Shown one piece after another: positions 1,469-54,047 of a DNA stretch of 64,000 nt. Location: the NCBI RefSeq assembly GCF_009914755.1, contig NC_060947.1; one strand, 5' to 3'. The notes under the pieces are model-generated. The model worked only from the letters and a program-made list of their open reading frames with translations. It made no database searches and was not told the origin of the DNA. Position 1 is the stretch's first letter; each line of letters opens with the position of its first letter. The position numbers and the translations under genes are program-made. The DNA comes from the human T2T-CHM13v2.0 reference genome, Homo sapiens.

Positions 1469-2142
1469 GTGAGTAATTTTTTTAAAGCACACTACTGCAT
1501 GTATAACAATCATCACAACATATCTGTCAAGCACATCATGTATAAATACAAAGGGGATTTTAAAATAAATCTTTAAGCCAGAAAAGCAGGCTATGATGGT
1601 GATTCAGTGGTCTTTGCCTTATACTTGGGAAGTCAAATGGGTCCAAGAAATAGGTAATAAGAAAGACTGAAAAAATTACCTTGTACAAATTACTGTCCTT
1701 GTGGTGAACATGCAAAATGAAAAATATTACTGAAAGATGACTGCGTTTATTTACTGGGAGGAACAAAAGATTTGGGAGTTAGAATTTTTGAAAATCATTT
1801 TTCATCTTAATGAAGAGGCCTTGCTGATAATCAGTATGTGACACGCATACATTTTATTTTCTGTGGCTCTAAATGACTTACAGCTAATGGTACAAACAAA
1901 AATATATTTGATAAAACATGATAATTTTCTTTTTTTTGTTATACTTTAAGTTTTAGGGTACATGTGCACATTGTGCAGGTTAGTTACATATGTATACATG
2001 TGCCATGCTGGTGCGCTGCACCCACTAACTCGTCATCTAGCATTAGGTATATCTCCCAGTGCTATCCCTCCCCCCTCCCCCCACCCCACAACAGTCCCCA
2101 GAGTGTGATATTCCCCTTCCTGTGTCCATGTGATCTCATTGT

Positions 2143-5100
2143 TCAATTCCCACCTATGAGTGAGAATATGCGGCGTTTGGTTTTTTGTTCTTGTGATAGT
2201 TTACTGAGAATGATGATTTCCAATTTCATCCATGTCCCTACAAAGGACATGAACTCATCATTTTTTATGGCTGCATACTATTCCATGGTGTATATGTGCC
2301 ACATTTTCTTAATCCAGTCTATCACTGATGGATATTTGGGTTGGTTCCAAGTCTTTGCTATTGTGAATAGTGCCGCAATAAACATACGTGTGCATGTGTC
2401 TTTATAGCAGCATGATTTATAGTCCTTTGGGTATATACCCAGTAATGGGATGGCTGGGTCAAATGGTATTTCCAGTTCTAGATCCCTGAGGAATCGCCAC
2501 ACTGACTTCCAGAATGGTTGAACTAGTTTACAGTCCCACCAACAGTGTAAAAGTGTTCCTATTTCTCCACATCCTCTCCAGCACCCATTGTTTCCTGACT
2601 TTTTAATGATTGCCATTCTAACTGGTGTGAGATGGTATCTCATTATGGTTTTGATTTGCATTTCTCTGATGGCCAGTGATGATGAGCATTTTTTCATGTG
2701 TTTTTTGGCTGCATAAATGTCTTCTTTTGAGAAGTGTCTGTTCATGTACTTCACCCACTTTTTGATGGGGTTGTTTGTTTTTTTTTTTTGTAAATTTGTT
2801 GGAGTTCATTGTAGATGCTGGATATTAGCCCTTTGTCAGATGAGTAGGTTGCGAAAATTTTCTCCCATTTTGTAGGTTGCCTGTTCACTCTGATGGTAGT
2901 TTCTTTTGCTGTGCAGAAGCTCTTTAGTTTAATTAGATCCCATTTGTCAATTTTGTCTTTTCTTGCCATTGCTTTTGGTGTTTTAGACATGAAGTCCTTG
3001 CCCATGCCTATGTCCTGAATGGTAATGCCTAGGTTTTCTTCCAGGGTTTTTATGGTTTTAGGTCTAACGTTTAAGTCTTTAATCCATCTTGAATTGATTT
3101 TTGTATAAGGTGTAAGGAAGGGATCCAGTTTCAGCTTTCTACATATGGCTAGCCAGTTTTCCCAGCACCATTTATTAAATAGGGAATCCTTTCCCCATTG
3201 CTTGTTTTTCTCAGGTTTGTCAAAGATCAGATAGTTGTAGATATGCGGCGTTATTTCTGAGGGCTCTGTTCTGTTCCATTGATCAATATCTCTGTTTTGC
3301 TACCAGTACCATGCTGTTTTGGTTACTGTAGCCTTGTAGTGTAGTTTGAAGTCAGGTAGTGTGATATCACCAGCTTTGTTCTTTTGGCTTAGGATTGACT
3401 TGGCGATGCGGGCTCTTTTTTGGTTCCATATGAACTTTAAAGTAGTTTTTTCCAATTCTGTGAAGAAAGTCATTGGTAGCTTGATGGGGATGGCATTGAA
3501 TCTGTAAATTACCTTGGGCAGTATGGCCATTTTCACGATATTGATTCTTCCTACCCATGAGCATGGAATGTTCTTCCATTTGTTTGTATCCTCTTTTATT
3601 TCCTTGAGCAGTGGTTTGTAGTTCTCCTTGAAGAGGTCCTTCACATCCCTTGTAAGTTGGATTCCTAGGTATTTTATTCTCTTTGAAGCAATAGTGAATG
3701 GGAGTTCACTCATGATTTGGCTCTCTGTTTGTCTGTTGTTAGTGTATAAGAATGCTTGTGATTTTTGGACATTGATTTTGTATCCTGAGACTTTGCTGAA
3801 GTTGCTTATCAGCTTAAGGAGATTTTGGGCTGAGACAATGGGGTTTTCTAGATATACAATCATGTCGTCTGCAAACAGGGACAATTTGACTTCCTCTTTT
3901 CCTAATTGAATACCCTTTATTTCCTTCTCCTGCCTAATTGCCCTGGCCAGAACTTCCAACACTATGTTGAACAGGAGTGGTGAGAGAGGGCATCCCTGTC
4001 TTGTGCCTGTTTTCAAAGGGAACGCTTCCAGTTTTTGCCCATTCAGTATGATATAGGCTGTGGGTTTGTCATAGATAGCTCTTATTATTTTGAAATACGT
4101 CCCATCAATACCTAATTTATTGAGAGTTTTTAGCATGAAGCGTGGTTGAATTTTGTCAAAGGCTTTTTCTGCATCTATTGAGATAATCATGTGGTTTTTG
4201 TCTTTGGCTCTGTTTATATGCTGGATTACCTTTCTTGATTTGCATATATTGAACCAGCCTTGCATCCCAGGGATGAAGCCCACTTGATCATGGTGGATAA
4301 GCTTTTGGATGTGCTGCTGGATTCGTTTTGCCAGTATTTTATTGAGGATTTTTGCATCAATGTTCATCAAGGATATTGGTCTAAAATTCTCTTTTTTGGT
4401 TGTGTCTCTGCCAGGCTTTGTATCAGAATGATGCTGGCCTCATAAAATGAGTTAGGGAGGATTCCCTCTTTTTCTATTGATTGGAATAGTTTCAGAAGGA
4501 ATGGTACCAGTTCCTCCTTGTACTTCTTGTAGAATTCAGCTGTGAATCCGTCTGGTCCTGGACTCTTTTTGGTTGGTAAGCTATTGATTATTGCCACAAT
4601 TTCAGCTCCTGTTATTGGTCTATTCAGAGATTCAACTTCTTCCTGGTTTCGTCTTGGGAGAGTGTATGTGTCCAGGAATTTATCCATTTCTTCTAGATTT
4701 TCTAGTTTATTTGCGTAGAGGTGTTTGTAGTATTCTCTGATGGTAGTTTGTATTTCTGTGGGATCGGTGGTGATATCCCCTTTATCATTTTTTATTGCAT
4801 CTGTTTGATTCATCTCTCTTTTTTTCTTTATTAGTCTTGCTAGCGGTCTATCAATTTTGTTGATCCTTTCAAAAAACCAGCTCCTGGATTCATTAATTTT
4901 TTGAAGGGTTTTTTGTGTCTCTATTTCCTTCAGTTCTGCTCTGATTTTAGTTATTTCTTGCCTTCTGCTAGCTTTTGAATGTGTTTGCTCTTGCTTTTCT
5001 AGTTCTTTTAATTGTGATGTTAGGGTGTCAATTTTGGATCTTTCCTGCTTTCTCTTGTGGGCATTTAGTGCTATAAATTTCCCTCTACACACTGCTTTGA

Positions 5101-51292: not shown

Positions 51293-54047
51293 CTTTGTGG
51301 TTTTATCTACTCTTGGTCTTTGATCATGGTGATGTACAGATGGGTTTTTGGTGTGGATGTCCTTTCTGCTTTTAGTTTTCCTTCTAACAGACAGGACCCT
51401 CAGCTGCAGGTCTGTTGGAGTACCCTGCTGTGTGAGGTGTCAGTGTGCCCCTGCTGGCGGGTGCCTCCCAGTTAGGCTGCTCGGGGGTCAGGGGTCAGGG
51501 ACCCACTTGAGGAGGCAGTCTGCCCGTTCTCAGATCTCCAGCTGCGTGCTGGGAGAACTACTGCTCTCTTCAAAGCTGTCAGACAGGGACATTTAAGTCT
51601 GCAGAGGTTACTGCTGTCTTTTTGTCTGTGCCCTGCCCCCAGAGGTGGAGCCTACAGAGGCAGGCAGTCCTCCTTGAGCTGTGGTGGGCTCCACCCAGTT
51701 GGAGCTTCCCGGCTGCTTTGTTTACCTAAGCAACCCTGGGCAATGGTGGGCGCCACTCCCCAAGCCTCGCTGCTGCCTTGCAGTTTGATCTCAGACTGCT
51801 GTGCTAGCAATCAGTGAGAGTCCATGGGTGTAGGACCCTCTGAGCCAGGTGCGGGATATAATCTCGTGGTGCGCCGTTTTTTAAGCCCATTGGAAAAGCG
51901 CAGTATTCGGGTGGGAGTGACCCGATTTTCCAGGTGCCTTCCGTCACCCCTTTCTTTGACTAGGAAAGGGAACTCCCTGACCCCTTGAGCTTCCTGAGTG
52001 AGGCAATGCCTCGCCCTGCTTAGGCCCGCGCATGGTGCATGCACCCACTGACCTGCGCCCACTGTCTGGCACTCCCTAGTGAGATGAACCCGGTACCTCA
52101 GATGGAAATGCAGAAATCACCCGTCTTCTGCGTCTCTCCTCAAATCATTTTTTATTATAGAAAATATCATTGGTTTGACAGGCTTAGATATGTTTAGGTT
52201 TTTAATGGAATTAGGTGCTCTGATCTATTTTTTCCTCTGAGACAGAAATCTCTTTAAACAAAACAAGAACAAATAAAGCATCACTAATATGCCCCCAAAT
52301 ATTTATTTTCCTTTGAATTTTTCTTTTCTTGACTATAACATTTTTATCTGGCTTGGGGCAAGGTCCCTTCATTGGGCCTCTATCAGTATGTTGGTGGAAT
52401 ATGATTTACATTAATTTTTTTGATAAATTATTTGGTTAATAGGTCACATTACTTTGACAAAATTTTGAATAGTTAATAAATTTAGCAAGTGTTTAGCATA
52501 TGCCTTCTATAAGAAACAGATTCTGTGTATTGCATACACTTCCCATTTCTCCTCTTTTCAATGGAAACAGACTAATCTGAAAGTAATACAATTTTCTGTG
52601 AGAAAGCAATGAGGAAATGCCCAGTATTTATAAAACATTATAGCAAAATTATAATTACATATCAAATACAAAAATTTCATATGCTGTCTAATGTCAGACA
52701 TATCTGAATTTTGACACACATAATTGCATCTTATTTTTTAAGGTTGATTTTGTCCCTTTTACTGGAAGTGTTTATATAAGATGATAATGGGGTTCAAGTG
52801 ATCAATTCTGTCCAAGTATTTGGTTGTCACAAAGGAAGGCATCTGAATACCTAAAAGAATATAATTTTCTGCTTTTTAACATTCCTTAGGAAGTATGAAC
52901 AAGTTGGTTGAAATTCTTTCCAACCCCTTCCTCCAGGAAAAAGAAGTCATGTTTCATGGCATTGCCAATATTAAAAATAAAACTTAAAAAAACAGATAAA
53001 ATATTAGCAAAACAATAATCACTTATCTATTATTATTTATATTATGTAATTTCCTTTAATTTTCTATTAAATCACTGGTTAGTTTAAATGATCATGCTTC
53101 ACATCACTCAACTAAAAACAAAACAAAAATATGTTTTGTACTGCTTCTAAGTAAGTCTATGCAAAGTCTACACAACTCACAGCAAAAATGAAAAAGTTCA
53201 ATCAACCCTCTGTTTAGGCTACATGATGCCAAATTATCAGTTTGATTTTTCCCCATTGGATTGGCCAGATGTTTTAGCATTTTGCACACACAGCCTAAGA
53301 ATGTATTCAACTACTTACTATCAAATGATTGTATCAGAGGATGGAAATTCATATGCCTACCCGCACCCAGACTGGCAGGAATATACCCTTTGCATAAAGT
53401 GAAGCACAGTTGTATAATTTTATGCTGGTGTGTCAGTAGCAATATTTTATCTTGCATGGGAATTATGAGGACATACTGCAGCTACATAAAACAGAAACTT
53501 GTTTTATCTAACCTCTGATAAATTAAGGTAATTTATTGTGCATAGTTTTTGCATGTGTTTAAAATGTCTAGAGCAGGTAATTATATATGCTTTTTTGAAT
53601 ATATTGTAATATAAAGATTTTCTTCAATGATAGAATTGTGAGCTCTAGGCCGAAATTTTAAAAGTAAATATGATGGTAGATTTACAATTCAAAGGAACAT
53701 AAATGAACAGACATACTCTTAAAAAAACAGCTGTCTACCTGACTGATCCAAGAAAATGAATATTGAAAACAAACATCTGCCCTGTGGTAGACAATGTGGT
53801 AAAACTAATCGCACTGAGCATAATGAATTTATTTTCTTTTCTGCTTACTATAAACTTGGCAAACTTTTTCTGGTATAAATATTTAAATGTATCAACAAGG
53901 TGAAACAACAGTGCTCCAACATCCAAGATAGAGCCAGGAACATTTCTGGGAATTTTGAGGCCTCTGAGAAAGCTTACTCGCAATCCTTTCAGAATTAGGC
54001 ACCTCTTTGTCCTTAAGTTTCTAATGAGCCTAATTGAGTAATATAAG

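What the first reader, a model, noticed from the sequence alone, without database searches (positions are those of the whole stretch)
1932..52139. Two separately inserted full-length L1s share non-consensus variants, including the same ORF2 nonsense codon
Seen: L1 #1 and #2 have unrelated flanks and TSDs. Relative to the L1PA2/HS consensus as I recall it, they share substitutions at an offset of about 44,242: 2748/46992, 2801/47043, 2817/47059, 3285/47527, 3341/47583, 6570/50812 and 6843/51085, plus the TAC>TAG stop at 3300/47542. That stop removes the ORF2p C-terminal region needed for retrotransposition, so inheritance from a common active parent is unlikely given L1 cis-preference. The 5'UTRs differ at subfamily-type sites (gccggtctgaaaag versus gcccattggaaaag). 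Inference: interlocus gene conversion over the L1 body, or trans-mobilisation of one defective source.
Basis: partly seen in the sequence, partly recalled or inferred. Interest (0 to 1): 0.7.

Follow-up and report, generated by a model that had tools for sequence, protein, structure and literature searches.

The report
Neighbouring LINE-1 fossils swap mutations
Two dead LINE-1 jumping-gene copies 44 kb apart on the human X share eleven rare mutations, one a stop codon, likely because short patches were copied between them after they inserted, and nearby copies on chromosome 1 show the same excess out to roughly 250 kb.

Summary
Copies A (~1932-7959) and B (~46175-52139) have unrelated flanks and different TSDs, and share all 8 listed alleles plus 4 more. 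Eleven non-CpG alleles are absent from 45 other full-length L1s (0.34 expected). Three allele pairs, including the ORF2 Tyr891 stop with its neighbour, occur only in A and B genome-wide, so this is no sub-lineage signature. It is not whole-body conversion or parent-daughter copying either. A and B are 3.3% divergent, like unrelated copies, and differ at 13 of 83 lineage markers, five of which lie between the shared alleles. Best reading: several old, short ectopic gene-conversion tracts between neighbours. A control panel on chr1 shows the same excess, falling with distance: 10.7x under 100 kb, 8.3x at 100-150 kb, 3.5x at 150-250 kb, 1.0x beyond 2 Mb. A third L1 just left of the window shares one allele with both. 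The process is known (Alu neighbours within ~10 kb; genome-wide distance decay). I found no paper showing it for L1 at this range. Ape and pangenome checks could not be run.

The parts
1932..7959 (-). Copy A: near-full-length L1, younger of the two source sub-lineages (L1PA3-type; label recalled, not from a call). ORF1 ATG 7050, ORF2 ATG 5970; own lesions: ORF1 stops at codons 49 and 296, ORF2 1-bp deletions at 5461 and 4420, +2 T at 2788-2789, stop at codon 1231
46175..52139 (-). Copy B: near-full-length L1, about 55-60 nt shorter at the 5' end, older source sub-lineage. ORF1 ATG 51292, ORF2 ATG 50212; own lesions: ORF1 stop at codon 110, ORF2 1-bp deletions at 49136 and 49030, stop at codon 1159
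1915..1931 (.). TSD of A, left copy (right copy 7968-7984; 17 bp, 1 mismatch; 8 extra bases lie between the L1 5' end and the TSD)
46160..46174 (.). TSD of B, left copy (right copy 52140-52154; 15 bp, 2 mismatches)
2748..2817 (.). Shared block 1 (B 46992-47059): alleles 2748, 2801, 2817; bounded by marker differences at 2682 and 3025; 2748 also in the neighbouring copy L049
3285..3369 (.). Shared block 2 (B 47527-47611): alleles 3285, 3300 (stop), 3341, 3369; A and B identical over 176 bp (3190-3365)
3300..3302 (-). Shared ORF2 nonsense codon in A, Tyr891 to TAG
47542..47544 (-). Shared ORF2 nonsense codon in B, Tyr891 to TAG
5281..5686 (.). Shared block 3 (B ~49522-49928): alleles 5281 and 5686, between marker differences at 4606 and 5776; may be two tracts
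5828..5828 (.). Shared allele 5828 (B ~50070), separated from 5686 by marker 5776 and from 6570 by the A-lineage pair 6111/6114
6570..6843 (.). Shared block in ORF1 (B 50812-51085): alleles 6570 and 6843
9474..11419 (.). Copy C: older 5'-inverted truncated L1 (93.6-94.6% to A). Carries none of the 8 A/B shared alleles it covers; shares 2 of its 41 panel-absent alleles with B only (weak)

Best explanation
Copies A and B are separate L1 insertions from different source sub-lineages that share eleven rare alleles in four to five separate patches, likely because ectopic (non-allelic) gene conversion repeatedly copied short tracts between the two neighbours in the germ line long after insertion. 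Shown: separate TSDs and flanks; rarity of the alleles; interleaving with lineage differences; the same distance-dependent excess among chr1 neighbours. Inferred: each allele, the stop included, arose once by point mutation in one fixed copy and was written into the other during double-strand-break repair that used the nearby L1 as template. Most events are probably old, since both copies have mutated next to the shared sites since. A rough model puts the converted share at 10-20% of sites per direction if conversion was steady, 20-80% if it was early. The stop needs no retrotransposition to explain it and is likely neutral, as both copies carry other, different lesions.
For: Eleven A-B doubletons against 0.34 expected, top of 861 pairs. 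Genome-wide exact scans: 3285+3300 in 2 of 5514 copies with that 28-mer; 2748+2817 and 6570+6843 only in A and B; 3341+3369 in 7 places; 5686+5828 in 4. Single alleles: stop 26, 2748 22, 6570 4, 5281 14, 5686 117. A and B differ at 13 of 83 non-CpG lineage markers, 5 inside the shared span, giving 4 blocks; 6111/6114 adds a fifth. chr1 panel, observed/expected doubletons: 10.7 (<100 kb, 3 pairs), 8.3 (100-150 kb, 6), 3.5 (150-250 kb, 7), 1.7 (250-400 kb, 5), 1.4 (400-700 kb, 8), 1.9 (0.7-2 Mb, 31), 1.0 (>2 Mb, 930; calibration set). Position shuffles: 31 observed against mean 4.4, 0 of 20000 reached it. L028/L029/L030 share alleles pairwise in a non-tree pattern across subfamilies and orientations, with unrelated short flanks. 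L049, 6.9 kb from A, shares 2748 with both and 2512 with A only. Neighbour-shared alleles are 25 transversions of 39, against 943 of 2047 singletons, unlike hotspot recurrence.
Against: Identical runs around the shared sites are not longer than random (94 vs 83 bp, P=0.27) and clustering is marginal (P=0.056), so tract edges are inferred from markers, not seen. B is the closest partner of A in only 1 of 20 windows of 300 bp. No clear GC bias: 16 weak-to-strong vs 12 strong-to-weak. Eight of 19 chr1 pairs under 320 kb share nothing. Tract length is not resolved. Poisson P values treat sites as independent although some share a tract, and the A-B pair was picked because it shares alleles. The panel is 45 of 1574 matches, all chr1. 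One haploid assembly only.
Confidence: 0.82

Rival explanations
1. One or two long (kilobase) early conversions homogenised the body; the lineage differences inside it were re-introduced later by conversion from other L1s or by recurrent mutation.
For: Shared alleles span only 2748-6843, none in the 3' 800 bp or the 5'UTR. Simulations with 1-3 kb tracts can give 9-13 shared sites. A and B match at 7 of 16 sites that separate A-like from B-like groups.
Against: Clean markers 4164, 4427 and 6111/6114 keep the A and B lineage states inside the span, in step with the markers outside it. It still needs further conversions.
Confidence: 0.08
2. The same local patchwork, but templated by RNA or cDNA of the neighbouring copy rather than by its DNA.
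For: cDNA-mediated conversion is reported for yeast Ty and Tf2 (PMC6598467). Several lineage alleles in B look A-derived (2956, 4208, 4326).
Against: Decay over 100-250 kb in both orientations, involving a truncated promoter-less copy (L049), fits DNA pairing better. Some sites suggest transfer from B to A too (2058, 5605), though the groups are approximate.
Confidence: 0.05
3. A and B descend from one defective source element (or B from A) mobilised in trans by another L1's ORF2p.
For: Both carry the same stop and ten other rare alleles; both have TSDs and A-rich tails.
Against: They differ at 13 lineage markers along the whole length. No sibling copies carry the allele pairs tested. The one chr7 element with two of the alleles is 7% divergent and lacks the other nine. 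Landing within 44 kb is unexplained, and the chr1 neighbour pattern crosses subfamilies.
Confidence: 0.03
4. Assembly or polishing cross-talk, or locally biased recurrent mutation.
For: Only one assembly was examined. Each single allele does recur elsewhere (4 to 117 carriers).
Against: Longest identical run 233 bp. About 55-58 unshared rare alleles per copy (66 and 69 rare alleles less the 11 shared). Private changes lie next to shared ones (differences at 3366-3367 beside 3369). Transversion-rich spectrum. A 30-fold excess is too large for regional rate differences (inference).
Confidence: 0.02

Closest known systems
Non-allelic gene conversion among neighbouring Alus (Aleshin and Zhi 2010; not held; seen second-hand in passages of PMC8230782, and parts 1-2 of 4 of PMC6598467)
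   Same: Neighbouring TE copies share non-diagnostic mutations; the signal falls with distance; hotspots are reported on the sex chromosomes.
   Different: Reported range about 10 kb for 300-bp Alus. Here 6-kb L1s show an excess at 44 kb and, on chr1, to about 150-250 kb.
[quoted passage not shown]
   Same: Distance decay steepest between 100 kb and 10 Mb; signal outside segmental duplications.
   Different: Uses present-day polymorphism and de novo mutations with k-mers. Its main text has no hit for 'transpos', 'retrotrans', 'Alu', 'LINE-1' or 'L1PA'. Its supplements were not seen.
NAGC between human gene duplicates (bioRxiv 10.1101/135152; passages read)
   Same: Mean tract 250 bp and 2.5e-7 per base per generation. 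My rough figure, 0.1-0.2 of sites per direction over ~12 Myr (age and 25-year generation recalled), gives about 2-4e-7.
   Different: Introns of duplicate genes, not dispersed retrotransposons.
Recombinant full-length L1s in pangenome assemblies (PMC13192797; passages read)
   Same: Mosaic L1s exist; 35 of 2267 were removed as recombinants.
   Different: The screen described uses phylogenetic donor groups in young L1HS/L1PA2. The passages I read do not test physical neighbours or private alleles.

Membership tests
Full-length L1 insertion by target-primed reverse transcription | 5'UTR, ORF1, ORF2 (endonuclease, RT), A-rich tail, own TSD | tested here: met
   both copies, TSDs imperfect
L1PA3 subfamily | Diagnostic sites against library consensus | tested here: inconclusive
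   No repeat library. Both lack the ~130-bp 5'UTR segment of older panel copies and most alleles of the youngest group. The label itself is recalled.
Non-allelic gene conversion | Shared derived alleles between paralogs of separate origin | tested here: met
Non-allelic gene conversion | Mosaic pattern: shared tracts between unconverted sites | tested here: met
   4 blocks by markers, 5 with 6111/6114
Non-allelic gene conversion | Rate falls with genomic distance | tested here: met
   (chr1 panel)
Non-allelic gene conversion | Locally raised identity around tracts | tested here: inconclusive
   94 vs 83 bp, P=0.27; one 300-bp window of 20 stands out
Non-allelic gene conversion | GC bias of transferred alleles | tested here: inconclusive
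   16 W>S vs 12 S>W among 39 alleles; singletons 799 vs 771
Non-allelic gene conversion | Non-reciprocal transfer polarised by outgroup orthologs or shared polymorphism | not testable with these tools
   No ape or pangenome data; G000 has no relatives here
Source-daughter (sub-lineage) L1 pair | Same lineage markers along the whole length | tested here: not met
   13 of 83 markers differ
Segmental duplication or assembly collapse | Shared flanks or long identical runs | tested here: not met
   no flank hit; longest run 233 bp

The most novel reading that the evidence does not exclude
Full-length L1s form local conversion networks across the human genome. Copies within roughly 250 kb, in either orientation and across subfamilies, trade short tracts at about ten times the point-mutation rate, a reach 10-25 times that reported for Alus. 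Inactivating and regulatory alleles would then move between fixed copies without retrotransposition, L1 age and lineage estimates would be biased by neighbourhood, and L1 pairs would be a fossil ruler for germ-line homology search distance.
Probability: 0.5. Interest if true: 0.6.

Novelty: new member of a known kind. Interest (0 to 1): 0.42.

Why it matters
The locus is a clean case in which a shared nonsense codon is explained without retrotransposition. The control panel suggests it is a strong example of a general rule, not an oddity. If the distance decay holds genome-wide, thousands of L1 pairs give a direct measure of ectopic conversion against distance, orientation and divergence outside segmental duplications. 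It would also mean that private L1 SNVs used to trace source elements or assign reads are not always locus-unique among neighbours. No function for the two copies is implied.

Tried and rejected
Sub-lineage signature: rejected by five paired-allele genome scans. The chr7 element carrying both 5686 and 6570 was fetched (L048): an older copy, 7% divergent, 172 rare alleles, lacking the other 9 shared alleles, so read as coincidence. Older window L1 fragments as donors: C, D, E, F, G were projected on A; only F (80% identity, 303 panel-absent alleles) matches one shared site, 3341. Whole-body conversion: rejected by ordinary divergence and interleaved markers. Tract length and timing by simulation: unresolved; steady short tracts and early tracts of any length both fit. 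The first codon numbering used a panel copy with an indel and was wrong; one search replaces it. Neighbour pairs among genome-wide rare-allele carriers are in excess but only modestly (5686: 4 pairs under 100 kb among the first 100 of 117 carriers, 0.66 expected) and were not checked for segmental duplication. Literature searches listed no study of distance-dependent conversion among neighbouring L1s. PMC7827986 and PMC5640379, read as passages, do not show it. The library lacks most subscription papers, and Burton et al. [quoted passage not shown] (cis preference) was seen as a listing only, so cis preference rests on recall.
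Full report
Setting. The window is G000:C23:124496001-124560000. It holds two near-full-length minus-strand L1s, A (~1932-7959) and B (~46175-52139), which align over 5968 columns at 96.5%. Their TSDs differ (17 bp with 1 mismatch; 15 bp with 2) and about 1.5 kb of flank on each side gives no blastn hit, so they are separate insertions. Pfam finds endonuclease, RT and ORF1 domains in 5 of 8 translated pieces.

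Observation. All 8 listed sites are identical in A and B. I built a control panel from the first 100 listed of 1574 genome matches to a 5'UTR motif: the first 40 in order and 5 more chosen for being close together, all on chr1. With 45 panel copies and 5704 non-CpG sites, A and B share 11 alleles found in no other copy, against 0.34 expected from 930 far pairs. It was the highest of 861 pairs. The stop is ORF2 codon 891, Tyr to TAG. Each copy also has its own, different stops and frameshifts in ORF1 and ORF2.

Not a sub-lineage. The 28-mer with both 3285 and 3300 occurs twice in the genome, in A and B, among 5514 copies that match with N at the two sites. The pairs 2748+2817 and 6570+6843 occur only in A and B. 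3341+3369 occurs in 7 places (A, B, chr13, chr21 and three on chrY) and 5686+5828 in 4. Single alleles recur at background level: stop 26, 2748 22, 6570 4, 5281 14, 5686 117. One chr7 element carried both 5686 and 6570. Fetched, it is 7% divergent from A, B and the panel, has 172 rare alleles and lacks the other nine shared ones.

Not one source and not one long tract. A-B divergence is 199 of 5957 (3.34%), the same as to unrelated copies of similar age. A and B differ at 13 of 83 non-CpG lineage markers from 2110 to 7583. Five lie inside the shared span and cut it into 4 blocks; the pair 6111/6114, typical of A-like copies, adds a fifth. A mostly has the younger state and B the older one. At 16 sites separating approximate A-like and B-like groups, A and B differ at 9 and match at 7, four with the A-type and three with the B-type allele. 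That hints at transfer both ways, but the grouping is loose.

The neighbour effect is general in the panel. The next highest pairs were mostly physical neighbours. Observed/expected doubletons were 10.7 under 100 kb (3 pairs), 8.3 at 100-150 kb (6), 3.5 at 150-250 kb (7), 1.7 at 250-400 kb (5), 1.4 at 400-700 kb (8), 1.9 at 0.7-2 Mb (31) and 1.0 beyond (930). In the first 40 copies, 14 pairs under 300 kb shared 31 doubletons; 20000 position shuffles averaged 4.4 and none reached 31. Of the four close pairs among the 5 copies added afterwards, two shared 2 each (0.02 and 0.08 expected) and two shared none (0.11, 0.09). Of 19 pairs under 320 kb, 8 share two or more, 3 share one and 8 share none. 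Direct and inverted pairs both show it, their short flanks (110-150 bp examined) are unrelated, and the 7 chr1 sharing pairs examined differ at 5-27 lineage markers. L028, L029 and L030 share alleles pairwise in a way no tree explains. At this locus a third, truncated 5'-inverted L1 (L049, just left of the window) shares 2748 with A and B and 2512 with A alone, of 12 rare alleles.

Mechanism. Most likely each allele arose once in a fixed copy and was copied to the neighbour by homologous repair using the nearby L1 as template (inferred). Against a recent or sharp signal: identical runs round the shared sites average 94 bp versus 83 at random (P=0.27), clustering is marginal (P=0.056), B is the closest partner of A in 1 of 20 windows, and there is no clear GC bias. 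A simple simulation reproduces 9-13 shared sites with about 10-20% of sites converted per direction if steady, or 20-80% if early; it cannot fix tract length. With a recalled age of ~12 Myr and 25-year generations the steady case is about 2-4e-7 per base per generation, close to the 2.5e-7 and 250-bp tracts estimated for gene duplicates (10.1101/135152, passages). The P values treat sites as independent, and the A-B pair was selected for sharing; the chr1 panel is the unbiased part.

Known work. Conversion among neighbouring Alus within about 10 kb is reported (second-hand through PMC8230782 and PMC6598467; the primary paper is not held). A 2026 preprint shows genome-wide ectopic conversion with decay steepest between 100 kb and 10 Mb but does not name L1 in its main text (supplements not seen). 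A pangenome L1 study removes 35 recombinants found by donor groups. Searches listed no study of distance-dependent conversion between neighbouring L1s, within a library that lacks most subscription papers.

Verdict. A real feature and a new, strong instance of a known process. The part worth following is the L1 distance curve, which rests on 45 copies of one chromosome in one assembly.

Noticed in passing
L049:597-1469 (G000:C23 ~124491546-124492418, just left of the window): Truncated, 5'-inverted L1 of about 870 bp; shares 2748 with A and B and 2512 with A only, so the local exchange involves at least three copies.
   Followed up: partly
window 9474-11419: Older 5'-inverted L1 (copy C); shares 2 of 41 panel-absent alleles (2515, 3041 in A numbering) with B and none with A, although it is much closer to A.
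   Followed up: partly
G000:C5:68644813 and C5:68716478: A second pair of L1s, 72 kb apart, both carrying the same ORF2 Tyr891 stop allele; not checked for segmental duplication.
   Followed up: no
G000:C7:27068294/27142069; C8:47453657/47474487/47536257; C11:41693832/41872238; C11:87447818/87598626: Close groups among carriers of the 5686 allele: 6 pairs under 250 kb against about 1.5 expected; duplication not excluded.
   Followed up: partly
G000:C23:125433526: A carrier of the 5281 allele 0.9 Mb from the window; 7 of the 14 carriers are on X.
   Followed up: no
L015 and L016 (chr1, 246 kb apart): Four shared rare alleles within 52 bp (5899-5950 in A numbering), a compact tract between copies that differ at 26 lineage markers.
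   Followed up: partly
window 7908-7920: A carries a 13-bp tandem duplication near the 5' end that is also present in 15 or 16 of the 40 panel copies of mixed ages; alignment placement not checked.
   Followed up: no
window 58808-59137, 25038-25276, 54626-54899: Short local direct repeats (165 bp at 85%, 115 bp at 88%, about 90-bp period at 74%) seen in the self-comparison.
   Followed up: no
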